Positions 6,658-32,000 are shown, numbered from the stretch's first letter. The stretch: 32,000 nucleotides of DNA from Alkalilimnicola ehrlichii MLHE-1 (GCF_000014785.1 NC_008340.1:120001-152000), one strand, 5' to 3'. The notes: generated by a model not told the origin, from the letters alone. Numbers and translations are program-made.

Positions 6658-6690
6658 TGGCGCCCTCCTGAAGTCTTGTAAGTGTTTTGT

Positions 6691-7692: not shown

Positions 7693-7749
7693 TGCATGCC
7701 CGCATCCATTTCGGCGAAGCAATTGTGATCCTGGTGCGTTACAAAAAAG

Positions 7750-18878: not shown

Positions 18879-19748
18879 ATGACTATCTACTACGACCATT
18901 GTAGAAGTTTCGAAGGTAATAACGCGCCTTTACTGGCATGTGTGACTCCGCTTATACACCCCGATGTGGCCCGGAGTTGGCCATCTGTTTGTGCCCGCCT
19001 CCGTGAGACTGCCGCTTCCGTCCTCTCATCTGATAGCCCAGCCACCCCCATTCGAATGTTTGTCGGTTGTAACTACGAAGCGGAGGTGTCAGACCTTCCA
19101 TCAGGTGTAAAACTTATGCGTTTGCCTCTGCCAGCACCGGACGCGTCAGTTTATGCTAGCACAGGTGATCAGGAGGCAGTGCGACTAGAGTCGGTGAGGT
19201 TGGATAAGGGGGAAAAAGTACTGGCAGCAGCCCGCGAAGCCCGTGATGAAGGCGCTGAATACATTATGTTTCTTGATGCTGATGACCTTTTAAGTAATAG
19301 AATTATAGGGTGGGTTGCCGCGCATCGTGGGGCCCCGGGTTGGGTGATCGACAAGGGTTGGTTGCACCGGCCTAATAGTCCATTTATATATCAACAAGAT
19401 AGGTTTAATAGAGTTTGTGGGAGCTGCCACATTGTGAGAACAGATCTGATACCAGGGCTATCTTCTAAAGCGGAGATGACGGAGGATGAGATAAAGAAGT
19501 ATTTCGGAAGCCACCTACATCTAGCAGACAGGCTATCTTTTGAGGGCCACCATCTAGAAAAGCTTCCTTTCCGTGGTGCTGTCTACCGAGTAGGCCATGG
19601 AAATAATATTTCACGCCGTAAACGCGCCATAGAGTTTTGGGCCCTTCGACGGCATCCTAGCCTTTTTCTCAAGAGAGTAGTAGGGTTTCGACGCCTCTCG
19701 GCTAAATTAATAGAAGAGTTTTCGGTTCCCCCTATAAGTCGGCATTAG
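18879..19748 (+). CDS. putative GT-A-fold glycosyltransferase
   Basis: 289 aa, low GC. YIMFLDADDLLS (DxD-type motif) after an N-terminal Rossmann-like region. Confidence 0.55.
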   Translation: MTIYYDHCRSFEGNNAPLLACVTPLIHPDVARSWPSVCARLRETAASVLSSDSPATPIRMFVGCNYEAEVSDLPSGVKLMRLPLPAPDASVYASTGDQEAVRLESVRLDKGEKVLAAAREARDEGAEYIMFLDADDLLSNRIIGWVAAHRGAPGWVIDKGWLHRPNSPFIYQQDRFNRVCGSCHIVRTDLIPGLSSKAEMTEDEIKKYFGSHLHLADRLSFEGHHLEKLPFRGAVYRVGHGNNISRRKRAIEFWALRRHPSLFLKRVVGFRRLSAKLIEEFSVPPISRH

Positions 19749-19752
19749 GTTT

Positions 19753-20505
19753 CTAATTGACATTATATCCATATCGCTGTGCCAGCTTTATTACTTCATC
19801 CGGGGGCGGTGTGTATGATGGCGCTCTGTGCGCATAGCCCAGTTTTTTATTAGATTTTGGCCCGGGCTCTATTAAGGTATCCGAGATGCCTAGGTGCTCG
19901 ATGACTGTTGGCCAGCAAGTGTCCAAGTCTTCTAGGCGAACTCTAAGATACGGAAGTCTGGCAGCGTTTGCATTAACTTCAATAAGCTTGTTCCACTCGG
20001 CCCAATACCACCAGAGCCTTTCGGCTTCATGCCGATAGGTCCAACAATTGGTATGGGTTTTTAAGAATGCACGATGTTGAAATACATATCTACAACGCCG
20101 GTAAAGCCTCCGAGGGCTAAATCCTAAGTCCTTGATGTAAGTGTATAGGTTTTTCCCATGGGTGGCGTGGACGAGGGGGTTACCACAAAATAATCCAATA
20201 CGACCAAAAGAAGCCACCACGTCTGCGGGATAACGAACCACATGCAAAACAGGTGTGTTGGCCGGGAGCCGGTTTAGAAAGGGGGCTGCATACCATGAAG
20301 ATTCTCCGAAGTCCCCTCGCTCTTTTGGTTTAGGGCCAAAAACAGTAAACTGCTCTTCGTGCTTGCACGCGATCCCAGCTGCGTTTAAGCGATCTGAAAT
20401 GTATTGCGTTCCGGACCGGCCGCAGCCCGTGATCAAGTATCGAATATGAATCAAACCATTGTCCTTTCTTGTCGTGGGCATAGTTGTTGTTTCTGAGCTC
20501 GGCAT
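19753..20505 (-). CDS. sulfotransferase-family protein
   Basis: 250 aa, low GC. YLITGCGRSGTQY resembles the 5'-phosphosulfate-binding loop and VVRYPADVVAS the 3'-phosphate-binding motif of PAPS sulfotransferases. Confidence 0.65.
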   Translation of the reverse strand: MPSSETTTMPTTRKDNGLIHIRYLITGCGRSGTQYISDRLNAAGIACKHEEQFTVFGPKPKERGDFGESSWYAAPFLNRLPANTPVLHVVRYPADVVASFGRIGLFCGNPLVHATHGKNLYTYIKDLGFSPRRLYRRCRYVFQHRAFLKTHTNCWTYRHEAERLWWYWAEWNKLIEVNANAARLPYLRVRLEDLDTCWPTVIEHLGISDTLIEPGPKSNKKLGYAHRAPSYTPPPDEVIKLAQRYGYNVN

Positions 20506-20579
20506 AAGGGTTGTATATTGGGTGGTGCGGTGGCTTTAGGTCTTCCCATGGCTTCCAGTGGCGATGAGCCTGTCTTCCT

Positions 20580-20618
20580 GTTGCAACTAGCGGAACAAGT
20601 AGTGTTGCTGCCAGCAAC
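20580..20618. promoter_or_regulatory. paired GTTGC/GCAAC palindromes in the divergent intergenic region (possible operator)
   Basis: GTTGCAAC (20580-20587) and GTTGCTG-c-CAGCAAC (20604-20618), inside the 325-bp AT-rich spacer between the sulfotransferase and acyl-CoA ligase genes. Confidence 0.3.
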
Positions 20619-20830
20619 CAAGTGACGGGTTCACATGGGGTTATCTCATAGAGCGTGCGTGAAATGCTGGGTTTTAAAGAAGTAAGGGTAGCTGTTCGGC
20701 CGAAGTTTGCATGTCTGGTCGGATGCCTTTGCGAAGTCTGAACTATGATTCTGTAAGTTAAGGTCCACGCTAGCCAGACTAGACGCAAACCAACCGCTAT
20801 GAGGGCGAGAAGGAGAGAGTCGGGCCACCT

Positions 20831-22432
20831 ATGGCTATACCAATTTTGCTTCACGAGACCCTGCTGAGCAGCGCGGGGCGGGCCCCTTCATCACCGGCGG
20901 TCAGCTACCGGGATTCTTCACACGACTATGACACCCTTGCCACTGCCTGCCAAAGCGTGGCCGCAGCGCTGCGCGAATGCGGCCTGCTGCGTCAGGAGCG
21001 GGTGGCCGTCTACCTCGACAAGCGACCCGAGACGGTGCAGGCCTTGTTCGGTGCGGCAATGGCCGGAGGGGTCTTCGTCCCCGTCAATCCGCTGCTGAAG
21101 GCTGACCAGGTCGCCTACATCCTGCGCGACTGCAATGTCCGTATCCTGGTGACCACCGCTGACCGGCTCAAGGCGATCCGCCAGGCGCTGGTCCAGTGCC
21201 CCGACCTGCACACCGTCCTGGTCGTGGGCCGTTCGGACACCCTCGGCGAAGAGGAGCCTCCCTACCGGGTCCACGACTGGTACGACGTGGTCTCTACAGC
21301 AGGGCCGGCTCGGCCGCATCGCGTGATCGACAGCGACATGGCCGCCATCCTCTATACCTCCGGCAGTACCGGTCAGCCCAAGGGGGTGGTGCTCTCCCAC
21401 CGCAATATGGTTGCCGGTGCCCAGAGCGTGGCCAGCTACCTGGACAACCGGCCCGAGGACCACCTGCTGGCCGCACTGCCTTTCAGCTTCGATTACGGCC
21501 TCAGCCAGCTCACGACGGCCTTCTTGACCGGTGCGCAGGTGTCGCTGCTGAACTACCTGCTGCCGCGGGATGTGATCAGAGCGGTGGAAAAGCAGGGAAT
21601 CACCGGCCTGGCGGCGGTCCCCCCATTGTGGATCCAGTTAGCACAGCTGGAGTGGCCGGACGCGGCGCGCAAGACCCTGCGCTACGTGACCAATTCCGGC
21701 GGTGCCATGCCCCTGAAGACCTTGGAGGCGCTCCGGGCGCAACTGCCCGCTACCCGCTTCTACCTGATGTACGGGCTCACCGAGGCCTTCCGCTCGACGT
21801 ACCTGCCGCCGGAGGAGGTGGACCGACGGCCCGATTCCATGGGCAAGGCCATCCCCAATGCAGAGATCAGGGTGGTGCGTGAGGACGGCTCCCCGTGCGC
21901 CCCCGGCGAGCCGGGCGAGCTGGTGCACCGGGGGGCGTTGGTGGCCATGGGCTACTGGAACGACCCGGAACGGACCGCGCAGCGCTTCCGTCCGGCGCCG
22001 GGCCAGCCGGGCGGCTTGCCGCAAAAGGAATTGGCGGTCTGGTCGGGCGATACCGTACGCATGGACGAGGAGGGGTTTCTCTACTTCATCGGTCGACGCG
22101 ATGAGATGATCAAGACCTCGGGTTATCGGGTGAGCCCGAACGAGGTGGAGGAAGCCGTCTATGGCACCGGGCTTGTCGCCGAGGCCGCCGCGCTCGGGGT
22201 GCCGCACCCGGTGCTGGGGCACGGCATCGTTTTGGTCGTGTTGCCGCGCTCCACCGGCGTGACCGCGGAGGAGCTTTTGAATGCCCTGCGGCCCCGGGTA
22301 CCGGCATTCATGTTGCCCGCTCACGTGGAGCTTCGGCAACAACCCCTGCCGCGTAACGCCAATGGCAAGATCGACCGCAAGGGGCTATCCACCGACTTCA
22401 CCGACCTGTTTCAGGAGAACGCTGCACCGTGA
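20831..22432 (+). CDS. acyl-CoA ligase (AMP-forming), exosortase-A-system-associated type
   Basis: 533 aa. ILYTSGSTGQPKGVVLSHRN, YGLTE, SGDTVRMDEEGFLYFIGRRDEMIKTSGYRVSPNEVE, NGKIDRK. Confidence 0.9.
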   Translation: MAIPILLHETLLSSAGRAPSSPAVSYRDSSHDYDTLATACQSVAAALRECGLLRQERVAVYLDKRPETVQALFGAAMAGGVFVPVNPLLKADQVAYILRDCNVRILVTTADRLKAIRQALVQCPDLHTVLVVGRSDTLGEEEPPYRVHDWYDVVSTAGPARPHRVIDSDMAAILYTSGSTGQPKGVVLSHRNMVAGAQSVASYLDNRPEDHLLAALPFSFDYGLSQLTTAFLTGAQVSLLNYLLPRDVIRAVEKQGITGLAAVPPLWIQLAQLEWPDAARKTLRYVTNSGGAMPLKTLEALRAQLPATRFYLMYGLTEAFRSTYLPPEEVDRRPDSMGKAIPNAEIRVVREDGSPCAPGEPGELVHRGALVAMGYWNDPERTAQRFRPAPGQPGGLPQKELAVWSGDTVRMDEEGFLYFIGRRDEMIKTSGYRVSPNEVEEAVYGTGLVAEAAALGVPHPVLGHGIVLVVLPRSTGVTAEELLNALRPRVPAFMLPAHVELRQQPLPRNANGKIDRKGLSTDFTDLFQENAAP

Positions 22433-23664
22433 ATGGACAACGCCCTTGCCATGCGCCCATGGACCAGTTCGAGGTTGCCGACGGCATGCTGCAGGTGGGT
22501 GGCCGCCCGCTCTCCGATCTGGTGCAGCAGGCCGGCGGTACGCCCTTCTACGCCTACGACCGTCGCCTGATGACCCGGCGTGTCGCGGCGTTGCGCCAGA
22601 CCCTGCCAGAGGGGATTGCGCTTCACTACGCGATCAAGGCCAACCCCATGCCTGCCGTGGTCCAGCATATGGCCGGCCAGGTTGACGGTCTCGATGTGGC
22701 CTCGGCGGGGGAGTTGCGGGTGGCGTTGGATGCCGGGGTGTCCGCGGCGGATATCAGCTTCGCCGGCCCCGGTAAGACGGACGATGAACTGGCCGCGGCC
22801 GTAGCCGCGGGTATCACCATCAACCTGGAGTCGGCCACCGAGCTGGAGCGGCTGGCCGCCATCGCGGAGAAGATCGGTCACCGACCCCATGTGGCGGTGC
22901 GGGTGAATCCCGACTTCGAGCTCAAGACCTCCGGGATGAAGATGAGCGGCGGGGCCAAGCCGTTCGGCGTGGATGCGGAGGCGGTGCCGGCGTTGCTCAA
23001 ACGCATTGCGGCGCTGGATGTGCATTTTCGCGGTTTTCACATCTTTTCCGGGTCACAGAATCTGCGGGCCGAGGCCCTGGTGGAGGCCCAGGGCCTGACC
23101 CTGGACCTGGCGCTCCGGCTGGCGGACGATGCGCCCGGCCCGGTGGAGATGCTGAATATCGGCGGTGGCTTTGGCATCCCCTATTTCCCGGGCGACCGCC
23201 GGCTGGATCTGGCGCCGGTCAGTGAGCAGCTTGAAGCGCGGCTCCCGGCGGTGCGGGAGCGCCTCCCGGGGGTGGAGATCATCCTGGAGCTGGGGCGTTA
23301 CCTGGTCGGCGAGGCCGGCATCTACGTGGCGAAGGTAGTGGACCGCAAGGTCTCCCGCGGCCGCACATTCCTGGTCACCAACGGGGGGTTGCATCACCAT
23401 CTGGCGGCATCCGGCAACTTCGGCCAGGTCATCCGCAAGAACTACCCGGTCGCCGTCGGCAATCGCATGGATGCCAGCGCCAGCGAGACAGTGGATGTGG
23501 TGGGGCCGTTGTGCACGCCGTTGGATATCCTCGCCCAGCAGGTGGACCTGCCGCCGGCGCAGCCCGGTGACTGGATCGTGGTGTACCAGTCCGGTGCCTA
23601 CGGTTACACCGCGAGCCCGACGCGGTTCCTGGGGCATCCGGAACCGCTGGAGTTGCTCGTTTGA
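22429..23664 (+). CDS. PLP-dependent decarboxylase (Orn/DAP/Arg decarboxylase fold), exosortase-A-system-associated type
   Basis: 411 aa. GTG overlaps the ligase stop (GTGA); alternative ATG at 22459. TPFYAYD, HYAIKANP (PLP lysine), GGGFGIPY, EPGRY-like ELGRYLVGEAG, GAYGYTAS. Confidence 0.9.
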   Translation: MNGQRPCHAPMDQFEVADGMLQVGGRPLSDLVQQAGGTPFYAYDRRLMTRRVAALRQTLPEGIALHYAIKANPMPAVVQHMAGQVDGLDVASAGELRVALDAGVSAADISFAGPGKTDDELAAAVAAGITINLESATELERLAAIAEKIGHRPHVAVRVNPDFELKTSGMKMSGGAKPFGVDAEAVPALLKRIAALDVHFRGFHIFSGSQNLRAEALVEAQGLTLDLALRLADDAPGPVEMLNIGGGFGIPYFPGDRRLDLAPVSEQLEARLPAVRERLPGVEIILELGRYLVGEAGIYVAKVVDRKVSRGRTFLVTNGGLHHHLAASGNFGQVIRKNYPVAVGNRMDASASETVDVVGPLCTPLDILAQQVDLPPAQPGDWIVVYQSGAYGYTASPTRFLGHPEPLELLV

Positions 23665-23684
23665 GTAAGGGGGCAAGCCGTCTT

Positions 23685-23694
23685 GGGGGGGGGG
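23685..23694. repeat. homopolymeric G10 tract (followed by A-G4) at the high-GC / low-GC junction
   Basis: tcttGGGGGGGGGGaGGGGc, 21 nt after the decarboxylase stop. Confidence 0.9.
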
Positions 23695-23841
23695 AGGGGC
23701 GTGTAATTAAAATAGTAATAGAGTGGATGTGGAGTACTGCCGCCTATCGAATGCCGAAGCATTCGCAGTATGCGGAGAAGTAGGCTATTTAATTTAAAGA
23801 TACGGGTTTCGTCCGTCGGCTAGCCGGCGATGCACAAAGGG

Positions 23842-23853
23842 TCTCTCGAGAGA
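23842..23853. promoter_or_regulatory. perfect 12-bp palindrome upstream of the ATP-grasp gene (possible operator)
   Basis: TCTCTCGAGAGA, about 30-50 nt upstream of the candidate starts. A second palindrome CGGCTAGCCG is nearby, and a hairpin CGAATGC-cgaa-GCATTCG lies at 23748-23765. Confidence 0.3.
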
Positions 23854-23902
23854 TCCAAAGGGCCGGTTATATGATTAATGCTTGGGTCATGAGGGTGTGT
23901 TG

Positions 23903-25096
23903 GTGAGGGATAAGACAGTCTTGATACTTGGTTGCTTTCCTAGGATTTCTGTTCCTATAGCGCAGTGCCTAAAAAATCATGGGTTTGATGTCTATGTCGG
24001 TGATATTGGCAGCAATCCACGCAATCTATACTCAAATTATATTGATGGATTATTTAAGTTTTCTTCTCCAGAAAGAAGTGGCGACTGTTTTCTTAGTGAG
24101 ATTGTTCGTTTTATTGATGAGTTTCAAGTTGATTTTGTTGTTCCTGTTAGTGATGGTGAGTTGAGTGCGCTTGCTAAATATGAAGATCAACTTCGGAGCA
24201 GAGCTGTGTTGCTGCTCCCAGAGGCCAGAAAAGTGCGCGCAGTTTTGGATAAGGCTGAAACTTTGAGGTTGGCGAAAAACCTTAGCATCCCTGCGCCCGA
24301 GACATTCTATGTGAGTGGAGAGGACGACCTTGACGTGGTCTGTGAAAATGCGTCGTTTCCAGTCGTTGTGAAGCCATCTGACAGGAGTGTGGCGACGCCA
24401 TTGAGGGCTCGCCATGCAAAAAATGAAGCAGATCTCAGGGCGATTTTATTGCCTCATATCGGGTCAAAAATAATGTGGCTTGTTCAAGAGTACTTGCCCG
24501 GTCAGGGGGTTGGTGTCGAAGTCCTTTTTTGGAATGGAGAGGCGCGCGTTATCTTTCAACATAGACGGTTAAAAGAGCTTCCTGTGACAGGAGGGGTAGC
24601 TGTGCGCTGTATCAGTGAGAAGCCTGATCAAAAAATGGTAGCATATGCACTATCTTTGCTTTCAGAAATTGGCTGGGAAGGACTTGCAATGGTTGAGTTT
24701 AGGCAGGACCCAGTGACTGGTAGGGTTGGGCTAATGGAGATAAATGGTAGGTGTTGGGGGTCAATTTCTCTTCCTATAAAATGCGGTATAGAATTTCCAT
24801 ACTATGCTGTAATTCTTGCCTCTGGCGAAGAAATAGAATTTCCAGAACGCTATCCTTTGGGTCAAAAAATGAGGTGGCTTTCTGGGGATTTGGAAAGGTC
24901 GCTACAGCTGCTTGCCCAAGTGCGCCATGGAGAAGCGACGCTAGGTTGTTTTTTTAGGGATGCGTCCATTTCCTTTTCTGACTTTTTTGGGGACACCAAA
25001 GATGCCCTGTGGTCGTGGAGAGACCCCTGCCCAGCCATGGAAGATTTGAGATTTTTTCTTAGGGGGTTGATTCGCAGGGTGGTAAAAAAGTTTTGA
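23903..25096 (+). CDS. ATP-grasp carboxylate-amine/thiol ligase-like protein
   Basis: ORF 23882-25096 (TTG). GTG 23903 lies about 8 nt after GAGGG. Very low GC. FPVVVKPSDRS, WLVQEYLPG, GLAMVEFRQD...GLMEINGRCWGS match ATP-grasp ATP/Mg-binding blocks. Confidence 0.8.
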   Translation: MRDKTVLILGCFPRISVPIAQCLKNHGFDVYVGDIGSNPRNLYSNYIDGLFKFSSPERSGDCFLSEIVRFIDEFQVDFVVPVSDGELSALAKYEDQLRSRAVLLLPEARKVRAVLDKAETLRLAKNLSIPAPETFYVSGEDDLDVVCENASFPVVVKPSDRSVATPLRARHAKNEADLRAILLPHIGSKIMWLVQEYLPGQGVGVEVLFWNGEARVIFQHRRLKELPVTGGVAVRCISEKPDQKMVAYALSLLSEIGWEGLAMVEFRQDPVTGRVGLMEINGRCWGSISLPIKCGIEFPYYAVILASGEEIEFPERYPLGQKMRWLSGDLERSLQLLAQVRHGEATLGCFFRDASISFSDFFGDTKDALWSWRDPCPAMEDLRFFLRGLIRRVVKKF

Positions 25097-25226
25097 TTAA
25101 TGTTAGGTTTTTGGTTAGTGAGTATGTCGTATATTAGTTCCTTCCTCTGCATTCGTATAGGCTTGAAAATGGCGTGGGCGCGGTGATGCGAATGTTGGCT
25201 AAAAAATATTTTGGCAGCACTGTGGA

Positions 25227-26141
25227 ATGTCAATGAGATATATTGAAAAAGGCGTAGTATTTTTATGTGATCTTGAGTCATTGGTTGGGGTTGTTAGCCA
25301 ACCTGACCAGCCTGCGGAGCTGGGTGTGATTATATTAGTAGGTGGGCCTCAGTATCGTGTAGGCGCACATAGGCAGTTTGTCCGTTTGGCCCGCTGTCTC
25401 GCCGCGAACGGTATCTCCTGCATGCGTTTCGACTACCGGGGCATGGGAGACGCCTCGGGTGCGGAGCGTGGCTATGGTCGGGTGCTGCCGGATATTGGGG
25501 CCGCGCTGGCGGCCTTTCAGGCCCAGGTGCCTCAGGTGCGGCGGGTTGTGCTCTGGGGGCTGTGTGGTGGTGCCAGCGCGGCCTGCCTGTACCGGGTGAC
25601 CGACGACCGGGTGGCAGGCCTTATCCTGGTGAACCCCTGGCTGGATGTGGAGGAGGCCCGGGCGAAGGTCCGGCTGAAGCACTACTACGCCCGCCGACTG
25701 CTCGCGGGGGATTTCTGGAAGAAGGCCCTGAGAGGCGGCCTGAGCGTCGGGGCTTCGGCAAAGGGCCTGCTGGGTACCGCCCGCGTGGCCCGTAAGGGCC
25801 ATGGCCAGCCCGCGGACGCTGTTGCGCAGACGGACGATATATACCCCGGGGACATGCTACGAGCCCTGCAGGCCGGGGGCGGGCGCAGCGCGGTATTCCT
25901 GAGTGGCCGCGACTATGTGGCCAGGACCTTCGAAGAGGCCATGGCCGGCCACCCGGCGTTTGCCGAGTTGGAACAGGCCGGGGCCGTGGAGGTGTGCCGT
26001 TTCCCATCCGCTGACCACACCTTTTCCAGCGCGGCGGCTATGCACCAGGTGGAGGAGGCGAGCCTGGAGTGGATCCAGGCTTTTCAGGGTCTGGAGCCGG
26101 AGCCGGCAACGCCGCCTGCCGCCGGCGAACAGGCCCGATGA
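25227..26141 (+). CDS. alpha/beta hydrolase, exosortase-A-system-associated hydrolase 1 type
   Basis: 304 aa. VIILVGGPQYRVGAHRQFVRLARCLAANGISCMRFDYRGMGDASG and nucleophile-elbow-like LWGLCGGA. The first ~100 nt are low GC, the rest high GC. Confidence 0.8.
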   Translation: MSMRYIEKGVVFLCDLESLVGVVSQPDQPAELGVIILVGGPQYRVGAHRQFVRLARCLAANGISCMRFDYRGMGDASGAERGYGRVLPDIGAALAAFQAQVPQVRRVVLWGLCGGASAACLYRVTDDRVAGLILVNPWLDVEEARAKVRLKHYYARRLLAGDFWKKALRGGLSVGASAKGLLGTARVARKGHGQPADAVAQTDDIYPGDMLRALQAGGGRSAVFLSGRDYVARTFEEAMAGHPAFAELEQAGAVEVCRFPSADHTFSSAAAMHQVEEASLEWIQAFQGLEPEPATPPAAGEQAR

Positions 26142-26193
26142 ACGGCCAACCTCTGCGCAGTAGACGAGCGGCCTGCCGTAATGGGTTCATCGT

Positions 26194-28124
26194 GGTCACC
26201 CAAGTTCGACACTTCAAGCCCATTTTTCACCCCGGGGCGAGGCGTAACCTGCTGAATTTAGATGATTGAGCATGCTTTACACCGCTAGGCGTTGTTGTGT
26301 CACGTGATATTGCTTATCGGTATTGAGGGCGGGGCGTGCAGCGGCTATAGTCGTGATATGTACACGCGCATCACCAAGTCGGGTCCACGCCGCTACCTGC
26401 AGTTGGTGCAGGGGTACCGGGACGACAATGGCAAGGTAAAGCAGCGGGTCGTTGCTAATCTCGGCCGCCTTGATCAGTTGGAAGCGTCAGATCTCGACGC
26501 CCTCATCAAAGGGCTTCAGCGGGCGGTGGGGCGCCCCGAGTCACTGCCCGAGGCCCCGCGCTTCGACACGGCCAAGGCCTTTGGTGATGTCTGGGCACTG
26601 CACCAGCTCTGGCAGGAGTTGGGGCTGGGTGAGGCCCTGAAACGCGCGCTGCGCTCTTCGCGCCGCCAGTTCGATGCCGAGGCCCTTATCCGAGCGATGG
26701 TCTTCAATCGTCTAGCTGCCCCGTGCAGCAAACTCGGCGTACTGGAATGGCTCCGTGAGGAAGCCAGTGTCCCTGGGCTTGATAGCGAAGCCATCCATCA
26801 TAAACAGCTCCTGCGCGCCATGGATGCGTTGGAAGAGCACAAGGAAGCCGTCGAACGGTCGGTGGCGGCCCAGTTGCGCCCGCTTCTGGACCAAGAGCTC
26901 AGCGTCATTTTCTATGACCTAACCACGGTGCGCATTCACGGCACCACCAGGGTGGCCGATGACATCCGCGACTACGGCCTGAGCAAGGAGACCGGCGGTA
27001 TTGGCCGCCAATTCGCCCTCGGCGTTGTCCAGACCGCCGAGGGCCTGCCCATCGCCCATGAGGTCTTCGAGGGTAACGTCGCCGAGACGCGTACTTTGGC
27101 GCCAATGATTGAGCGCCTGCTGGAGCGCTTTGCCCTCACGCGGGTAGTGGTCGTCGCCGACCGGGGCCTGCTGTCGTTCGACAACATCGACACCCTGGAT
27201 GCCTTGGGCGCCGAGCAAGGGCTGGCGGTGGATTACATCCTGGCCGTCCCCGGTCGCCGCTACCGCGATTTCGCCAAGTTGATGAGCACGCTGCATCCAC
27301 AACTGGCGGCGGCGGTCACCGAGCCGAGTGCCGACGTGGTGACCGAGACCACGTGGGAGGGTCGACGGCTGGTGGTAGCACACAATGCCGAGCGGGCGGC
27401 AGAGCAGACCGTCCAGCGCCGCGAAACCATCGAGGAACTGGATGCACTGGGGGCACAACTCGCGGAACGCCTCGACAACCAGGATGCTGGCCAGCCGGGT
27501 CGGGGTAGACGTTCCACTGATCGCAGCGCCTACCAGCGCTTCCACAAGGCAGTACTGGACAAGCGCATGGGCGCCATTGTTAAAACGGACCTCGGGGCGC
27601 CCCGGTTCAGTTACAGCATCGACACCGAGGCGTGGGCTCGGGCCGAGCAGCTTGATGGCAAACTGCTGCTGGTCACCAGCCTCAGCGACATGGAGGCCGA
27701 GGCTGTGGTGGAGCGTTACCGCTCCCTGGCCGACATCGAACGCGGCTTCCGGGTGCTCAAAAGCGAGATTGAAATTGCCCCGGTTTACCACCGCCTGCCA
27801 GAACGTATCCGGGCACACGCGATGATTTGTTTCCTGGCCCTGGTGCTCTACCGCGTCCTGCGTGGGCGGCTGAAGGCTGCCGGAAGCCCCCACTCACCGG
27901 AGAGGCTGCTGCGCGGTCTGAGGCAGATCCAACGCCACACCGTCCATGTGGGCAGCCAATCCTACGAGGGCCTGACACGGCCCAGCCAGGAGCAACTGGA
28001 CCTATTCGAGGTCGCCGGCGTGGAGGTGCCGAAGGAGCCCTGCTGAGCCTGTTGTGGCATTTTTCGAAATCTCAGTGCCGAGGAATCAATCAGTTACGTC
28101 CCTAACTGTCCAACTTGGGTGGTC
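26194..28124 (+). mobile_element. IS1634-family (IS4-like) insertion sequence, apparently intact (~1.93 kb)
   Basis: Imperfect terminal IRs GGTCACCCAAGTTCGACACTTCAAG (26194-26218) versus the reverse complement of 28100-28124, GACCACCCAAGTTGGACAGTTAGGG (18/25; core 17/19). Single transposase ORF. No convincing target duplication seen. Confidence 0.8.
26358..28046 (+). CDS. IS1634-family transposase
   Basis: ATG 26358 within ORF 26292-28046. N-terminus MYTRITKSGPRRYLQLVQGYRDDNGKVKQRVVANLGRLDQL is characteristic. DDE region (VVVADRGL..., YRSLADIERGFRVLKSEI). Confidence 0.9.
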   Translation: MYTRITKSGPRRYLQLVQGYRDDNGKVKQRVVANLGRLDQLEASDLDALIKGLQRAVGRPESLPEAPRFDTAKAFGDVWALHQLWQELGLGEALKRALRSSRRQFDAEALIRAMVFNRLAAPCSKLGVLEWLREEASVPGLDSEAIHHKQLLRAMDALEEHKEAVERSVAAQLRPLLDQELSVIFYDLTTVRIHGTTRVADDIRDYGLSKETGGIGRQFALGVVQTAEGLPIAHEVFEGNVAETRTLAPMIERLLERFALTRVVVVADRGLLSFDNIDTLDALGAEQGLAVDYILAVPGRRYRDFAKLMSTLHPQLAAAVTEPSADVVTETTWEGRRLVVAHNAERAAEQTVQRRETIEELDALGAQLAERLDNQDAGQPGRGRRSTDRSAYQRFHKAVLDKRMGAIVKTDLGAPRFSYSIDTEAWARAEQLDGKLLLVTSLSDMEAEAVVERYRSLADIERGFRVLKSEIEIAPVYHRLPERIRAHAMICFLALVLYRVLRGRLKAAGSPHSPERLLRGLRQIQRHTVHVGSQSYEGLTRPSQEQLDLFEVAGVEVPKEPC

Positions 28125-28929
28125 AGGCACCGTTATCGCGGAGTTCCAATGTCAGGCACTTCATGCCGCCCCCTGACTTCTGGAACTCGGAGATGGGCAT
28201 GGGATGCACTTGCAGCCCCATTTCCCGGTAGGTGGCGGCCAGGCCCCGGGCCCGATCGCTCAGTACGATGTGTCGGCCATCGCTCACCGCGTTCAGGCCG
28301 TACCCAACGGCATCGGCCTCCGCCGCCTCGATGACGCGCGGCACCCGGCGGTGGACGGCCTCCAGGCCTTCAGCCGTGAAGGCATCTGGATACAGGGCCA
28401 CGGTCTGTTCATCCACGATGGTCAGGGCCGTGTCCAGGTGGTAGAAGCGGGCGTCGGTCAGTTGCAGGCTGACCACCTCCAGGCCGAAGAACTCGGCCAG
28501 CTCCCGGTGGGCGGGCTTGTCGCTGCGCCACGGGTACCCGGCGAACAGGGTGTCGTTCCACAGCAGGGCATCCCCCTCGCCCTCGAAATCGTGGCGGGGC
28601 AGGCACAGCGTGCGATAGCCGCGGCGGCGGAACCATTGCTCGAAGAACTCTGTCTCGCCCTGCCTCTCCGGTTGCCGGAAGCGGGGCAGGGCCACCCGGT
28701 CGCGAATCACCAGGCCGCCGTTGGCCGTGAAGACCATGTCCGGCAGGTGCTCGATGGGGTCGATCAGGTGGACATCCCAGCCCAGCGTCTGGGTGTAAAG
28801 CTGGTACAGGCCCTGCCACTGGGAACGGGCCAGCTCTCTGCAGACCGGGTCATCCACGTGCATCCACGGATTGATCTCGTACTCGATATCGAAGTGCTCC
28901 GGCGGACACATGAGGACGGCTTTGCTCAT
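28123..28929 (-). CDS. amidinotransferase / DDAH-fold guanidino-group-modifying enzyme
   Basis: 268 aa. MCPPEHFDIEYEINPWM N-terminus, FYHLDTAL, and the C-terminal catalytic-Cys block SGGGMKCLTLEL. The stop codon lies within 1-2 nt of the IS1634 right end. Confidence 0.8.
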   Translation of the reverse strand: MSKAVLMCPPEHFDIEYEINPWMHVDDPVCRELARSQWQGLYQLYTQTLGWDVHLIDPIEHLPDMVFTANGGLVIRDRVALPRFRQPERQGETEFFEQWFRRRGYRTLCLPRHDFEGEGDALLWNDTLFAGYPWRSDKPAHRELAEFFGLEVVSLQLTDARFYHLDTALTIVDEQTVALYPDAFTAEGLEAVHRRVPRVIEAAEADAVGYGLNAVSDGRHIVLSDRARGLAATYREMGLQVHPMPISEFQKSGGGMKCLTLELRDNGA

Positions 28930-30548
28930 CGACCCCCGGCCTCCGCTTCCAGCCGGGCCATCAAGGCCTTGCGGTCCACCTTGCCGTTGGGGTTGAGCGG
29001 CAGCGCCTCCAGGGCGTGGATGACCCGGGGCACCATCACGCTGGGCAGCCGGCTGCGCAGCTGATCGCGTATCGCGGCCTCGTCGGCCGTCCCGGCCACC
29101 ACGAAGCCCACAATCCCGGCCGCACCGCTGGAGGTACGTGGCCAGCCCAGGGCCACGGCCTCGTCGGTGGCGGCCGCCTCGCGCAGGGCCTGCTCCACTT
29201 CGCCCAGTTCGATGCGTACCCCGCCCACCTTGATCTGATGGTCCATGCGGCCCAGGAACATGATGGGCTTGCCGGCCGGTGGGCGGCGCACCAGGTCGCC
29301 GGTCCGGTAGTGAACCGCGCCGTCCGAGGGCAGCCGGATAAAGGCCTGTTCCGTGCGCTCCGGATCGTTCCAGTAGCCCGGGGTGACTTGTGGCCCGCCA
29401 ATTAGCAACTCGCCCTCGGCCCCCTCGGGAACCGGTTGCAGGTCGTCATCCACCACGGTCAGCTGGACCTGGTTGCCCGGGTAACCGATGGGGACCATGC
29501 CGTGTTCACACTCGCCCGGCGAGCGTTCCGGGTCCCACAGGTAATAGGCGGAATCCACGGTGCATTCCGTGGGGCCGTAGGCATTGTCCACCCGCGCATG
29601 GGGGGCTGCTGCGGCCATCGCGGTGGCCAGCTCCGCGGACAGGGCCTCACCACCGAACCGGCACAGCCTCAGGGCCTGGAAGCGGCCCGGGCGCCAGCCG
29701 TCCCGCCGGTTCATGCCGTGACCGGCGGAGGGCGTGATATCGATGACGCTCAGCCTGCCCTCCTCGATGTACTTGTTGGGGTTGAACCACTCCTTCGCCG
29801 TGGGGCAGCAAAGGCAGGCGCCGAAGGCCCAGGAGACGTACAGGTCGAACATCGAGGAGTCGAAGGTGATGTCGTAAAACTGCGAGAAGCGGTCTGCCTC
29901 GCTGATCCCGAACGGCCGGTAGCGCTCCAGGGACATGGCGACGAAGCGCAGAGCGTTGCGGTGAAGCACTCCCACGCCTTTGGGCGTTCCCGTGCTGCCG
30001 GAGGTGAAGAACAGATAGGCCAGGTCGTCGGGTTGCACCGATGCCGGGCGCCAGTCAGACGGCGCACCCAACTCCGCGCGCGTCAGGAAACGGTGCTGCG
30101 GGAAGCGCGCCTGCAGTGCCTGGGCCGATTCGGCAAGGGGCAGCACCACGACCATGGGGACATCCATTCCAGGTAGCAAGTCGCTGAGCAGGGCCTCACC
30201 CTGCCCATCCGCCACCAGGGCCTGCAGGCCGGCCTGTTCAACCATCTGTTGGGTGCGTTCCTGCGGGAAGCCAGGGTTCAGCGGCACCACCGCCTTCCCC
30301 GCCATGAGCGTGCCGAGCAGGCCGCTGTAGACGGGCAGAGAGCGATTGGCCAGTACCCCGACCAACGGCGCCGTGGTCTCCGGCATGGCGCTTTGCAGGG
30401 CAGCACCGACCGCTGCGGCTTGGTGGTAGAGGTCGCTGTAGCTGTACTGCGCCCCTTGTACCTCTAGCGCGGGGCGACCGGAGTGGCGGTCGACGGATTG
30501 CAAGAAACCCTGGTGGAGACCGTAGATGCCGTCGAACCCTGTTGCCAT
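28926..30548 (-). CDS. stand-alone NRPS-type adenylation enzyme (DltA-like), no carrier domain
   Basis: ORF 28926-30617. ATG 30548 follows AAAGGAG. A-domain cores LAYLFFTSGSTGTPKGV, NAYGPTE, YRTGDLV, GRMDHQIKVGGVRIELGEVE, NPNGKVDRKAL. The stop overlaps the downstream start (ATGA). Confidence 0.85.
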   Translation of the reverse strand: MATGFDGIYGLHQGFLQSVDRHSGRPALEVQGAQYSYSDLYHQAAAVGAALQSAMPETTAPLVGVLANRSLPVYSGLLGTLMAGKAVVPLNPGFPQERTQQMVEQAGLQALVADGQGEALLSDLLPGMDVPMVVVLPLAESAQALQARFPQHRFLTRAELGAPSDWRPASVQPDDLAYLFFTSGSTGTPKGVGVLHRNALRFVAMSLERYRPFGISEADRFSQFYDITFDSSMFDLYVSWAFGACLCCPTAKEWFNPNKYIEEGRLSVIDITPSAGHGMNRRDGWRPGRFQALRLCRFGGEALSAELATAMAAAAPHARVDNAYGPTECTVDSAYYLWDPERSPGECEHGMVPIGYPGNQVQLTVVDDDLQPVPEGAEGELLIGGPQVTPGYWNDPERTEQAFIRLPSDGAVHYRTGDLVRRPPAGKPIMFLGRMDHQIKVGGVRIELGEVEQALREAAATDEAVALGWPRTSSGAAGIVGFVVAGTADEAAIRDQLRSRLPSVMVPRVIHALEALPLNPNGKVDRKALMARLEAEAGGR

Positions 30549-30705
30549 CTTCTGTCGCGCTCCTTTGTCGGTGACACGGGCACTGTTGTCACTGTGTTGC
30601 CTGCCGCTAACGGCCAATATGGTTTGCAGGCGGATCTACTGCTCAGATTAGCAGTCAGGGGTGAGACTTCAGGGGTGGCGGCGCTCCGCCGGGCGGGCCT
30701 GGCGC

Positions 30706-31920
30706 TTAACGCCCCTTGAAGAGACCCATGGCCAGGCTCATCCCGGCGTAGCGCCAACTGCCCAGGTGGCGGGGGTGGTGGCGCAGCGCCTCCAGGAAGG
30801 ACCGGCTGGCCCTGCGGGGGTTACCGCTCCAGTAGTGGTGATAGCCAAAGTCAAAGCAGGTGCCGGCCAGGCGTCGCTCGACGGCCTTGCGGTCGGAGCG
30901 TTCACCGGTGGGTCCCTCCAGCCCCCAGCGGGCCAACGCCTTTTCCACCACCAGCTTTTCGTAGTTGATGTCCGGCCATTGGGTGATGCAGCCGCTGCCG
31001 TGCAATCGGTACAGCGCGAACACCCGGTCCAGCTGGTGGATCTCGGTGTGGCGGGAGGCCCGCAGCCAGTAGTCGTAATCCTGACCCCGTTTCAGTTCGG
31101 GATCGAACCGGCCGACCTGCTCGATCAGCTCACGGCGGGCCATGACCGTGATGGTGTGCAGTAGCGAGCCAAAGAGCAGCCGGTTGTAGAGCCAGCCGGA
31201 GCCTTCGGTCAGCAGCGGGATCTCTTCCGGAGGTACCCCGGTATCAGGTGTTGCCGGTGCCAGGGCTTCGGGTGGGGGGAAGGCCTTGGACTGCTTGTCC
31301 CGTTTCCAGGGCAGCCAGTCCGAGTAGATCATGCCCACATCCGGGTGCGCCTCCAGGTACCCCACCTGCGCCGTCAGCTTGCCCGGCAGCCACACGTCGT
31401 CGGAATCCAGAAAGGCGATGTACTCCCCCTGGGCGGCATCCAGGCCCTGGTTCCGGGCCACCGCCGAGCCCTGGTTGGCCTGGGTCAACAGCCGTACCCG
31501 GTCACCGTAGGCTTGCACCCGGGCCACCGTGTCGTCACTGGAGCCATCGTCGATGACAATTAGCTCCTTGTGCGGGTAGTCCTGGGCCAGGACGCTGTCG
31601 ATGGCCTCCTCGATGTAACTGGCGGCGTTGAACGCCGGCATGATCACCGAAACCAGGGGCTGGGCGCTTGCATCGGCCGCTTGCGCTGCTGCCGCCGGGC
31701 CGCGCTGGAGGCAACCCAGCGTCCGTTGCCACAGCGCAGGTACCGTGCGGATCTCCTGGGTGGACCAGAAGGGTTCGCCGGGCACCACTGCGGCCTGCAC
31801 CGCGATACCGGCCTCCTGCCAGTCGTCCACCAGCCGCTGACTGGCAGGAGGCAGCTGCGGGGCATCCCCCTGCATCACTTCCACCCAGTGCACCTCGACG
31901 CCATCGGGCGGTTGCTGCAA
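30706..31920 (-). CDS. family-2 glycosyltransferase with an N-terminal extension (5' end may lie beyond the window)
   Basis: VSVIMPAFNAASYIEEAIDSV, LIVIDDGSSDDT, ARNQGL, FLDSDDVW. The ORF-track start at 31920 is a TTG and the frame stays open to nt 32000. Internal ATG at 31875. Confidence 0.8.
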   Translation of the reverse strand: MQQPPDGVEVHWVEVMQGDAPQLPPASQRLVDDWQEAGIAVQAAVVPGEPFWSTQEIRTVPALWQRTLGCLQRGPAAAAQAADASAQPLVSVIMPAFNAASYIEEAIDSVLAQDYPHKELIVIDDGSSDDTVARVQAYGDRVRLLTQANQGSAVARNQGLDAAQGEYIAFLDSDDVWLPGKLTAQVGYLEAHPDVGMIYSDWLPWKRDKQSKAFPPPEALAPATPDTGVPPEEIPLLTEGSGWLYNRLLFGSLLHTITVMARRELIEQVGRFDPELKRGQDYDYWLRASRHTEIHQLDRVFALYRLHGSGCITQWPDINYEKLVVEKALARWGLEGPTGERSDRKAVERRLAGTCFDFGYHHYWSGNPRRASRSFLEALRHHPRHLGSWRYAGMSLAMGLFKGR

Positions 31921-32000
31921 ACGGGCCTGCTCCAGCGCCTGGGCCAGGGCCGGTGCCAGTGGGTAGCCGGCGATCTCCAGGGTCTCGCCGCCGGCCAGGC

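What the first reader, a model, noticed from the sequence alone, without database searches (positions are those of the whole stretch)
20831..26141. Exosortase-A-associated ligase / PLP-decarboxylase / hydrolase cassette interrupted by a foreign ATP-grasp gene
Knowledge: acyl-CoA ligase, Orn/DAP-type PLP decarboxylase and hydrolase 1 form a conserved cassette of unknown chemistry in XrtA/EpsH-type loci. This is from my memory of the TIGRFAMs exosortase A system-associated families. Seen: here the ligase and decarboxylase overlap (GTGA). A gene with about 30-45 % GC in the stretches I counted, carrying intact ATP-grasp motifs, then sits between the decarboxylase and hydrolase 1. No acyl-carrier-protein ORF or hydrolase 2 gene is visible. 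Inference: a horizontally acquired third ligase may alter the product of this uncharacterised pathway, for example by adding an amide-linked substituent.
Basis: partly seen in the sequence, partly recalled or inferred. Interest (0 to 1): 0.65.

Follow-up and report, generated by a model that had tools for sequence, protein, structure and literature searches.

The report
Imported ATP-grasp ligase in exosortase cassette
A bacterium's slime-sugar (exopolysaccharide) gene cluster recently took up a foreign-looking ATP-grasp ligase gene, which elsewhere is a regular companion of the same uncharacterised enzyme cassette; that cassette resembles known antibiotic pathways that build an amino-acid side chain on a small carrier protein.

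Summary
The ligase (TIGR03098), decarboxylase (TIGR03099) and hydrolase 1 (TIGR03100) score far above their curated cut-offs. An intact ATP-grasp gene (23903-25096; GC3 0.40 against 0.72-0.83 for its neighbours) lies between the decarboxylase and hydrolase 1. A close relative (L172) has ligase-decarboxylase-hydrolase 1 contiguous, so window 23665-25281 is a lineage-specific insert.

The gene is not foreign to the pathway. The insert also carries about 48 low-GC codons of a hydrolase-1 orthologue, so the donor had the same adjacency. All five known members of the gene's clade lie beside hydrolase 1 of this cassette.

Hydrolase 2 is at the window edge on the minus strand, fused in frame to a GT2 glycosyltransferase, and an 84-aa ACP lies just beyond the window.

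The closest solved relatives are BtrK (ACP-bound glutamate decarboxylase), VinN (the ACP loader) and, for a second adenylation enzyme at 28926-30548, VinM/IdnL7. I therefore read the cassette as a carrier-protein pathway that makes an omega-aminoacyl decoration for the exopolysaccharide, with the ATP-grasp as an optional amide-forming step. The evolutionary history is shown; the chemistry is inferred.

The parts
20831..22432 (+). AMP-forming ligase of the exosortase-A cassette (TIGR03098); proposed loader of the stand-alone ACP (VinN-like)
   Evidence: NCBIfam 792.5 bits against a cut-off of 592. Its best single-domain PDB relative is VinN, 3wvn, at 226.7 bits (code confirmed). It is 85% identical to the L172 orthologue.
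22429..23664 (+). PLP decarboxylase of the cassette (TIGR03099); proposed to decarboxylate an ACP-bound acidic amino acid (BtrK/VinO-like)
   Evidence: NCBIfam 635.3 bits against 478. Its best PDB relatives are BtrK entries 2j66/7ru7 at 269 bits, against 164 for the best DAP decarboxylase. It is 39% identical to BtrK over about 374 residues. Its start overlaps the ligase stop as GTGA.
23665..25281 (.). Low-GC insert that is absent from the close relative; donor-type codons continue to about 25375 inside hydrolase 1
   Evidence: blastn against L172 shows homology ending at 23664 and resuming at 25282. These 1617 bp replace 67 bp of L172. AT-rich synonymous codons run up to about codon 48 of hydrolase 1. 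No flanking repeats or gene remnants were found. The segment is identical in five assemblies.
23903..25096 (+). ATP-grasp carboxylate-amine ligase (397 aa, GTG start), an accessory member of the cassette
   Evidence: The protein is on record as P0001 with this start. PF15632 scores 45.6 bits. All family-invariant residues are kept. The AF2 model has pLDDT 88.8 and an ATP-grasp fold. GC3 is 0.40. Its nearest relatives, at 44-47% identity, all lie beside hydrolase 1.
25233..26141 (+). Hydrolase 1 (TIGR03100), chimeric: about the first 48 codons are donor-derived and the rest is native; Cys-Asp-His alpha/beta-fold enzyme
   Evidence: NCBIfam 298 bits against 168. Identity to L172 is 12/20 residues at the N-terminus and about 98% from residue 81 to 260. 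C111, D227 and H262 are invariant or nearly invariant and sit at canonical triad positions.
26192..28124 (+). IS1634-family insertion sequence, absent from L172
   Evidence: The transposase scores 391 bits against NF033559 (cut-off 100). Its terminal inverted repeats are GGTCACCCAAGTTCGACA and TGTCCAACTTGGGTGGTC. L172 homology resumes at 28125.
28123..28929 (-). DDAH/amidinotransferase-fold enzyme, last gene of the ACP operon on the minus strand
   Evidence: NF045659 scores 312.7 bits against a cut-off of 300. Pfam hits are ADI and DDAH_eukar. It is 96% identical in L172.
28926..30548 (-). Stand-alone amino-acid adenylation enzyme, VinM/IdnL7-like (amide-forming on aminoacyl-ACP in the model pathways)
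   Evidence: TIGR01733 scores 338 bits against 317. Its best stand-alone PDB relatives are 8k4r_A (VinM, 280 bits) and 6akd (IdnL7, 259 bits) (codes confirmed). It is 96% identical in L172 and 65% in Thioalkalivibrio L010/L011.
30706..32000 (-). 3' part of the hydrolase 2::GT2 fusion gene (597 aa in full; runs off the window edge)
   Evidence: The frame is open to the window edge. The full protein scores 292 bits against TIGR03101 (cut-off 203) on residues 4-260, followed by a GT2 domain. The same 597-aa fusion is present in L172.

Best explanation
SHOWN. A 1.6-kb low-GC DNA fragment entered this lineage's XrtA/PEP-CTERM exopolysaccharide locus between the decarboxylase and hydrolase 1. The left end sits right after the decarboxylase stop codon. 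The right crossover is by homology inside hydrolase 1, just after its conserved GGPQYRVGxHRQF motif. The fragment carries an intact ATP-grasp ligase. The gene belongs to a small clade in which every known member lies beside hydrolase 1 of this same cassette, so the donor already used it with the cassette.

INFERRED: the cassette. It is a carrier-protein pathway of the butirosin (BtrI/J/K) and vicenistatin (VinL/N/O/M) type. The TIGR03098 ligase loads an Asp/Glu-type amino acid through a carboxyl group onto the 84-aa ACP. The BtrK-like decarboxylase removes the alpha-carboxyl from the tethered residue, giving a beta-alanyl- or GABA-type aminoacyl-S-ACP. Hydrolase 1, an alpha/beta-fold enzyme with a Cys-Asp-His triad, takes the acyl group from the ACP and passes it to a sugar acceptor. 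Hydrolase 2 has Arg in place of the nucleophile and is fused here to a GT2 glycosyltransferase; it acts as a non-catalytic adaptor to the glycosyltransferase step.

INFERRED: the ATP-grasp. It is an optional amide-forming step on this intermediate, comparable to the second reaction of BtrJ or to VinM. It activates a carboxylate as an acyl phosphate and joins it to the freed amine, or joins the aminoacyl product to another carboxylate. Strains that carry it would then decorate their exopolysaccharide with a longer, dipeptide-like substituent.
For: Insertion and horizontal transfer: the empty site in L172; GC3 0.40 against 0.72-0.83; orthologues with native GC elsewhere; no ATP-grasp at this position in 80 other loci; identical sequence in five assemblies. 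Donor already had the adjacency: low-GC synonymous codons encode an authentic hydrolase-1 N-terminus up to about codon 48. Link to the cassette: the ATP-grasp start overlaps or abuts the hydrolase 1 stop in L006, L008 and L174, and the gene lies 1.2 kb from hydrolase 1 in L173, inside a full cassette. The NJ tree groups the window protein with these. Fused paralogues lie next to cassette-type ACP genes (L089-L091, L166) or ligase+decarboxylase pairs (L134, L152, L153, L167, L042, L051). Cassette logic: BtrK is by far the best solved relative of the decarboxylase; VinN of the ligase; VinM/IdnL7 of the second adenylation enzyme. The ACP has a DSM site and weakly matches VinL. The pathway logic is documented in PMC11350588, PMC11284099 and PMC7857480. 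Hydrolase residues. Sugar link: the hyd2::GT2 fusion is conserved in two genomes, and a GT2 gene follows hydrolase 1 in Thioalkalivibrio. The ATP-grasp looks functional: all invariant residues are kept and the model is confident.
Against: No biochemistry exists for any protein of this cassette, and I found no paper on it. The wider ATP-grasp family is linked mainly to an LMW-phosphatase-like domain (63 of 80 loci) and to polysaccharide loci in general. Only 8 of 23 long-flank loci hold a carrier-protein-linked gene, and none holds hydrolase 1 or 2. The family's core chemistry may therefore not need an ACP. The fold search gives only generic ATP-grasp matches, and no BtrJ sequence was available for comparison. 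The core cassette works without any second ligase in most genomes. This genome already has a VinM-like enzyme, so the ATP-grasp's step could be redundant or different. The acceptor (sugar, lipid or PEP-CTERM protein) is not established. The NJ tree has no support values.
Confidence: 0.55

Rival explanations
1. The ATP-grasp is a polysaccharide-tailoring amidoligase that does not touch the ACP. It activates a sugar carboxylate, for example a uronic acid, and amidates it with an amine or amino acid, possibly the free product of the cassette. This would resemble the ATP-grasp amidoligases of capsule pathways (a comparison from my own knowledge, not tested here).
For: Relatives lie in polysaccharide loci with glycosyltransferases, Wzx/Wzy and UDP-sugar dehydrogenases, mostly without cassette genes. 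Fusion or adjacency to a phosphatase-like domain in 63 of 80 loci suggests a phosphorylated co-substrate or product.
Against: The clade that holds the window's gene is always beside hydrolase 1, often with overlapping stop and start codons. Fused paralogues sit directly next to ACP genes. No UDP-sugar dehydrogenase was identified in the window.
Confidence: 0.25
2. The ATP-grasp is an alternative ACP loader, like the first reaction of BtrJ. It would put a different acidic amino acid on the same ACP, changing the substituent rather than extending it.
For: In butirosin biosynthesis the loader of the ACP is an ATP-grasp enzyme. ATP-grasp and ACP genes are adjacent in several loci.
Against: Every locus that has the stand-alone ATP-grasp, and enough flanking sequence to judge, also keeps the TIGR03098 ligase. 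The gene's constant neighbour is hydrolase 1, not the ACP.
Confidence: 0.12
3. The insert is a neutral passenger. The ATP-grasp is not expressed or has no role in this genome, and the event matters only through its effect on hydrolase 1, which gained a new 5' end and was separated from the decarboxylase.
For: No promoter-like signal above chance was found. The codon usage is far from that of the host. Neighbouring IS elements show a locus in flux.
Against: The ORF is intact with every family-invariant residue. There is no terminator on the + strand, so read-through from the ligase-decarboxylase genes is likely. The sequence is identical in five assemblies from different samples.
Confidence: 0.06

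Closest known systems
Exosortase A (XrtA)-associated cassette of TIGRFAMs/NCBIfam: TIGR03098 ligase, TIGR03099 decarboxylase, TIGR03100 hydrolase 1, TIGR03101 hydrolase 2, plus a small ACP
   Same: All four families score above their curated cut-offs. The ACP is present. The locus contains a PEP-CTERM protein, the TIGR03097 O-antigen-ligase-like protein, polysaccharide deacetylases and FemAB-like GNATs.
   Different: Hydrolase 1 lies after the decarboxylase instead of after hydrolase 2. Hydrolase 2 is fused to a GT2 domain. An ATP-grasp, a VinM-like adenylation enzyme and a DDAH-like enzyme are added. The family models carry no known chemistry.
Butirosin side-chain pathway BtrI (ACP), BtrJ (ATP-grasp ligase), BtrK (PLP decarboxylase)
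   Same: There is a stand-alone ACP of about 85 aa. The decarboxylase's closest solved relative is BtrK (269 bits, 39% identity). An ATP-grasp ligase is in the gene set, and the final acceptor is likely a sugar.
   Different: The ACP loader here is an AMP-forming ligase, not the ATP-grasp. No homologues of the BtrH or BtrG type were seen. The ATP-grasp could not be compared with BtrJ. The product would decorate an exopolysaccharide, not an aminoglycoside.
Macrolactam beta-amino-acid starter pathway VinN/VinL/VinO/VinM/VinK/VinJ (vicenistatin) and IdnL7 (incednine)
   Same: The ligase is closest to VinN and the second adenylation enzyme to VinM/IdnL7. The ACP weakly matches VinL. The decarboxylase is of the type that acts on ACP-bound amino acids. 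Alpha/beta-fold enzymes are present, as VinJ is in that pathway.
   Different: There is no polyketide synthase and no VinK-type acyltransferase. Hydrolase 1 has a Cys nucleophile and shows no specific sequence match to VinJ. The context is an EPS locus in a proteobacterium.
Pfam PF15632 (ATP-grasp of the Ter-operon-linked biosynthetic pathway) and PRK06849/PRK12767 'CPS-like' ATP-grasp proteins
   Same: The C-terminal half matches PF15632 above its gathering score. There are weak matches to PRK06849 and PRK12767. The fold is closest to the CPS-like protein 2pn1 and to L-amino-acid ligases.
   Different: There is no Ter-operon context. The NCBIfam scores are far below their cut-offs (67 against 406). 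The family here has its own invariant FQHRRLKE-P-TGG motif and a helical C-terminal extension.

Membership tests
Exosortase A-associated ligase/decarboxylase/hydrolase cassette | Ligase, decarboxylase and hydrolase 1 score above the curated cut-offs of TIGR03098, TIGR03099 and TIGR03100 | tested here: met
   792.5 against 592, 635.3 against 478, and 298.0 against 168 bits
Exosortase A-associated ligase/decarboxylase/hydrolase cassette | Hydrolase 2 (TIGR03101) and a small ACP are present in the locus | tested here: met
   The fusion protein scores 292 bits against a cut-off of 203 on residues 4-260. The 84-aa ACP has a DSM motif and matches the cassette ACPs of L006 and L008 at 63-66%. Only the last 94 codons of hydrolase 2 lie inside the window.
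Exosortase A-associated ligase/decarboxylase/hydrolase cassette | The genome encodes XrtA and PEP-CTERM proteins | tested here: inconclusive
   A PEP-CTERM protein (45-977) and TIGR03097 are in the window. XrtA itself is not in the 35 kb that I could read.
ATP-grasp superfamily (carboxylate-amine/thiol ligases) | ATP-grasp fold with the ATP-binding Lys and the Mg-binding E-x-N motif | tested here: met
   The AF2 model has pLDDT 88.8. Foldseek gives probability 1.00 to biotin carboxylase, CPS and L-amino-acid ligases. K157, E265, E279, N281 and R283 are invariant.
Pfam PF15632 ATPgrasp_Ter | Score above the gathering threshold | tested here: met
   45.6 bits against 29.1, on residues 199-331 only
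Pfam PF15632 ATPgrasp_Ter | Genomic association with Ter (tellurite-resistance-type) operon genes | tested here: not met
   No Ter genes appear in the window or in any of about 90 related loci. The contexts are polysaccharide loci.
BtrJ-type ATP-grasp (ligase acting on an ACP and on aminoacyl-ACP) | Sequence relationship to BtrJ; activity on ACP-bound substrates | not testable with these tools
   No BtrJ sequence or structure was reachable. Only one weak PDB sequence hit was found, to PurT.
BtrK/VinO-type decarboxylases of ACP-bound amino acids | Closer to BtrK than to DAP/Orn/Arg decarboxylases | tested here: met
   269 bits to BtrK against 164 to the best DAP decarboxylase, at 39% identity
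BtrK/VinO-type decarboxylases of ACP-bound amino acids | Substrate is an aminoacyl-S-carrier protein | not testable with these tools
   Only the gene neighbourhood (ACP and loader) supports it.
VinN-type and VinM-type stand-alone adenylation enzymes | Best solved relatives are VinN (loader) and VinM/IdnL7 (amide-forming) | tested here: met
   3wvn scores 226.7 bits for the ligase. 8k4r_A scores 280 bits and 6akd 259 bits for the second enzyme. Multi-domain LgrA scores higher only because two of its domains are summed.
IS1634 family insertion sequence | Transposase above the cut-off, terminal inverted repeats, and absence from the empty site | tested here: met
   391 bits against 100; imperfect 18-bp inverted repeats; absent in L172. 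No target-site duplication was recognised.

The most novel reading that the evidence does not exclude
The widespread exosortase-A-associated cassette, whose function has been unknown since it was defined, is a carrier-protein pathway of the BtrK/VinN type. It would attach beta-alanyl- or GABA-like aminoacyl groups to exopolysaccharide. A previously unstudied ATP-grasp family, stand-alone or fused to a phosphatase-like domain, would be its modular extender, producing dipeptide-like EPS decorations that differ between close relatives through horizontal exchange of this one gene.
Probability: 0.35. Interest if true: 0.75.

Novelty: new variant of a known kind. Interest (0 to 1): 0.55.

Why it matters
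The XrtA-linked ligase/decarboxylase/hydrolase/ACP cassette occurs in hundreds of floc- and biofilm-forming proteobacteria, including Nitrosomonas, Zoogloea, Thauera, Competibacter and Thioalkalivibrio. I found no assigned chemistry for it in the searchable literature.

Three points make the question directly testable:
- Its enzymes are closest to BtrK, VinN and VinM.
- Hydrolase 1 carries a Cys triad.
- Hydrolase 2 can be fused to a glycosyltransferase.

Together these suggest specific experiments: load the ACP, decarboxylate the tethered residue, and look for aminoacylated sugars.

The ATP-grasp insert adds a natural pair for comparison. The source genome carries the gene, and its L172-type relative does not. 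Comparing their EPS should reveal what the extra ligase adds. It also shows how EPS chemistry can diversify when a single tailoring gene is swapped by recombination inside a conserved neighbouring gene.

Tried and rejected
- Exact look-up of the 404-aa TTG-start protein found nothing. The gene on record starts at the GTG at 23903.
- A search for flanking direct or inverted repeats, or a mobile-element signature, around the insert found only chance-level short repeats.
- blastx of the two spacers (23665-23902 and 25097-25232) against all cassette proteins found no gene remnants.
- The promoter/terminator scan was at chance level, and Rfam gave no hit in 20000-28500.
- The G10 tract at the left junction was checked as a possible phase-variation site. 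It has the same length in all five assemblies.
- I looked for an ATP-grasp::phosphatase fusion paralogue in the window plus its 3-kb extension. There is none.
- Sequence search of the ATP-grasp against PDB gave only one weak PurT hit. The fold search gave generic ATP-grasp folds, so neither yields a substrate prediction.
- Hydrolase 1 against PDB by sequence and by fold gave only generic esterases and lipases, with no specific match to VinJ or to acyltransferases.
- I considered that the ATP-grasp and the VinM-like enzyme might replace each other: L006 and L008 have only the former, L010 and L011 only the latter. The sample is too small, and the window has both, so I make no claim.
- Literature searches for the cassette (family accessions, keywords and the 2006 PEP-CTERM paper) found no functional study.
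- The source organism's close relatives are not in the species-representative genome collection; the best decarboxylase match there is 75%. The empty-site comparator had to come from a metagenome contig.

Full report
**1. What is in the sequence**

The window is a mosaic XrtA/PEP-CTERM exopolysaccharide locus. It opens with a PEP-CTERM protein (45-977), UDP-GlcNAc 2-epimerase, polysaccharide deacetylases and FemAB-like GNATs. It continues with an ISL3 transposase, the TIGR03097 O-antigen-ligase-like protein and an MsbA/PglK-like ABC exporter.

The region named in the finding holds four plus-strand genes:
- Ligase, 20831-22432: TIGR03098, 792.5 bits against a cut-off of 592.
- Decarboxylase, 22429-23664: TIGR03099, 635.3 against 478. 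Its start overlaps the ligase stop as GTGA.
- ATP-grasp gene, 23903-25096.
- Hydrolase 1, 25233-26141: TIGR03100, 298 against 168.

The ATP-grasp gene has GC 0.45 and GC3 0.40. Its neighbours have GC3 0.83, 0.83 and 0.72. It is an intact member of a well-conserved family. All 60-odd invariant positions are kept, including K157, E265 and E279-x-N281-x-R283. Its AlphaFold model (pLDDT 88.8, pTM 0.88) matches ATP-grasp ligases.

The arrangement is identical in a complete 3.26-Mb genome and in four assemblies from other read sets, so it is not a chimera.

**2.

- Hydrolase 2 is present. The minus-strand frame from 30706 is open to the window edge. In the source genome it is a 597-aa protein: residues 4-260 score 292 bits against TIGR03101 (cut-off 203), and the rest is a GT2 glycosyltransferase.
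- An 84-aa ACP with a DSM phosphopantetheine site precedes that fusion gene, just outside the window.
- The same minus-strand operon continues with a stand-alone amino-acid adenylation enzyme (28926-30548) and a DDAH-like enzyme (28123-28929).
- An IS1634 element (26192-28124) lies between hydrolase 1 and that operon.

**3. Is the ATP-grasp an insertion? Yes.**

A search with hydrolase 1 found an 88%-identical protein on a 28-kb metagenome contig, L172. That relative has ligase, decarboxylase and hydrolase 1 contiguous with an 18-bp spacer. It has no ATP-grasp and no IS1634. The rest is conserved: DDAH-like enzyme, adenylation enzyme (both 96% identical), the same 597-aa hyd2::GT2 fusion, the ACP and an AsnB-like gene.

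DNA homology with L172 stops exactly at the decarboxylase stop codon (23664) and resumes at 25282. So 1617 bp replace 67 bp of the relative.

In 80 loci from other genomes anchored on the decarboxylase (61-75% identical), the ligase-decarboxylase pair is nearly universal. An ACP-hyd2-hyd1 operon is often nearby. None of the 80 has an ATP-grasp between the decarboxylase and hydrolase 1.

**4. Is it foreign to the pathway? No.**

Three lines of evidence:

1. The low-GC tract continues about 48 codons into hydrolase 1. Those codons encode an authentic hydrolase-1 N-terminus using AT-rich synonymous codons. Identity to L172 jumps to about 98% right after the conserved GGPQYRVGxHRQF motif. The donor fragment was therefore ATP-grasp plus the 5' end of hydrolase 1, and the right crossover was homologous.
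2. The closest relatives of the protein (44-47% identity) all lie beside hydrolase 1 of the same cassette. They are from Thioalkalivibrio (L006), Halorhodospira (L008) and two metagenome contigs (L173, L174). In three of them the start overlaps or abuts the hydrolase-1 stop. All four have the GC content of their host loci.
3. An NJ tree without support values places the window protein as the deepest branch of this stand-alone clade. Its sister group is a set of ATP-grasp::LMW-phosphatase fusions that also occur near cassette genes.

By protein divergence the ATP-grasp (46-47% to L006/L008) is no more of an outlier than hydrolase 1 (40-44%).

**5. The wider ATP-grasp family**

Eighty metagenome relatives (34-41% identical, mostly from soil) are fused or adjacent to an LMW-phosphatase-like domain in 63 cases, in either order.

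Annotated contexts are polysaccharide loci. They contain glycosyltransferases, Wzx/Wzy, UDP-sugar dehydrogenases, AsnB-like amidotransferases, FemAB-like GNATs and sulfotransferases.

With cassette HMMs across the 83 family loci searched:
- 4 loci have true ligase+decarboxylase pairs.
- 8 have a cassette-type ACP.
- About 7-9 have a single NRPS module.
- None has hydrolase 1 or 2.

Among loci with at least 12 kb of flank, 8 of 23 have a carrier-protein-linked gene. The link to carrier-protein chemistry is therefore real but partial. The strict link to hydrolase 1 holds only for the stand-alone clade.

**6. What the cassette most likely does (inference)**

- **Decarboxylase.** Its best solved relative, by a wide margin, is BtrK, the L-glutamyl-[BtrI ACP] decarboxylase: 269 bits and 39% identity, against 164 bits for DAP decarboxylases.
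- **Ligase.** Its best single-domain relative is VinN, which loads 3-methylaspartate or Asp onto the stand-alone ACP VinL.
- **Second adenylation enzyme.** It is closest to VinM and IdnL7, which aminoacylate the amine of the decarboxylated aminoacyl-ACP.
- **ACP.** It weakly matches VinL, and strongly matches an uncharacterised solved protein, 2lki.
- **Hydrolase 1.** It has an invariant Cys at the nucleophile elbow, plus D227 and H262, at canonical triad positions in the model. This suits thioester or acyl-transfer chemistry.
- **Hydrolase 2.** It has an invariant Arg at the nucleophile position and no conserved His, so it is probably not a hydrolase.
- **Sugar link.** Hydrolase 2 is fused to a GT2 domain in two genomes, and a GT2 gene follows hydrolase 1 in Thioalkalivibrio. 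This ties the pathway to a glycosyl-transfer step.

The published logic for butirosin, fluvirucin, closthioamide and vicenistatin has three steps: load Asp or Glu on an ACP, decarboxylate the tethered residue, then extend the amine with a second ligase. That logic fits this parts list.

In this frame the ATP-grasp is an optional amide-forming step. It would be analogous to the second reaction of BtrJ (itself an ATP-grasp enzyme) or to VinM.

I found no paper that assigns a function to the cassette.

**7. Rivals**

- The ATP-grasp may instead amidate a sugar carboxylate. This is supported by the family's general polysaccharide context and its phosphatase partner.
- It may act as an alternative ACP loader.
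- It may be a silent passenger.

None is excluded. The constant adjacency to hydrolase 1 and the intact sequence argue for a cassette-linked role.

**8. Verdict**

The claim of horizontal acquisition is now demonstrated with an empty-site comparator. The "foreign interruption" framing is replaced by a recurrent accessory gene, re-acquired by recombination within hydrolase 1.

The chemistry remains inferred. Novelty: a new variant of a known but uncharacterised cassette, with a concrete and testable mechanistic model.

Noticed in passing
window 30706-32000 (-), continuing in L001 16804-18597: Hydrolase 2 (TIGR03101) is fused in frame to a GT2 glycosyltransferase, giving a 597-aa protein. The fusion is conserved in the relative L172. 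In Thioalkalivibrio (L010/L011) the operon is ACP-hyd2-hyd1-GT2, so the fusion looks like the result of losing hydrolase 1 from between them.
   Followed up: partly
window 25233-26141 (hydrolase 1) and L001 16804-18597 (hydrolase 2 part): Hydrolase 1 has an invariant Cys (C111) at the nucleophile elbow, with D227 and H262. Hydrolase 2 has an invariant Arg (R108) at the equivalent position and no conserved His. So one is a Cys-triad enzyme and the other is probably a non-catalytic alpha/beta-fold protein.
   Followed up: partly
window 28123-30548 (-): A stand-alone adenylation enzyme, closest to VinM/IdnL7, overlaps a DDAH/amidinotransferase-fold gene in the ACP operon. Both are 96% identical in L172. 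The adenylation enzyme is also found in Thioalkalivibrio L010/L011 (65%), but the DDAH-like gene is not. The role of a guanidino-modifying enzyme here is unexplained.
   Followed up: partly
window 26142-28124: An IS1634 element (26192-28124) has imperfect 18-bp terminal inverted repeats, and its right end supplies the stop codon of the DDAH-like gene. Next to it, at 26170-26191, only about 8 codons remain of a 235-aa methyltransferase-like gene that is intact in L172.
   Followed up: partly
window 5965-8769 and 18879-20505: There are two further low-GC islands (GC3 0.43-0.54) in the same locus. They hold GNAT/FemAB-like acetyltransferases, a GT2 and two unknown genes. Their composition is similar to that of the ATP-grasp insert, which suggests repeated imports from low-GC donors.
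   Followed up: no
window 23686-23700: A G10AG4 homopolymer tract sits exactly at the left junction of the insert. Its length is the same in all five assemblies, so there is no sign of phase variation.
   Followed up: yes
window 20812-23664 compared with 28125-32000, against L172: The ligase-decarboxylase block is only 78% identical to L172 at nucleotide level (proteins 85% and 81%). The minus-strand operon is 91% identical (proteins 96%). The ligase-decarboxylase block may itself have been exchanged by recombination.
   Followed up: partly
L089-L168, L170, L171 (metagenome loci): Most relatives of the ATP-grasp are fused or adjacent to an LMW-phosphatase-like (PF01451) domain, in both domain orders. 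Several lie a few kb from a single C-A-T-TE NRPS module inside polysaccharide loci. This is an unstudied gene pair.
   Followed up: partly
L001 18611-18865 (-), just outside the window: The cassette's ACP has a close solved homologue, PDB 2lki, deposited as a 'putative uncharacterized protein' (79.6 bits). A structure therefore already exists for this ACP family.
   Followed up: no
window 9056-10363 (-) and 13043-15907 (+): An ISL3-family transposase sits upstream of the O-antigen-ligase-like gene. Two large ORFs (638 and 315 aa) have no match in Pfam or NCBIfam. The whole 13-20.8 kb stretch has no counterpart in L172.
   Followed up: no
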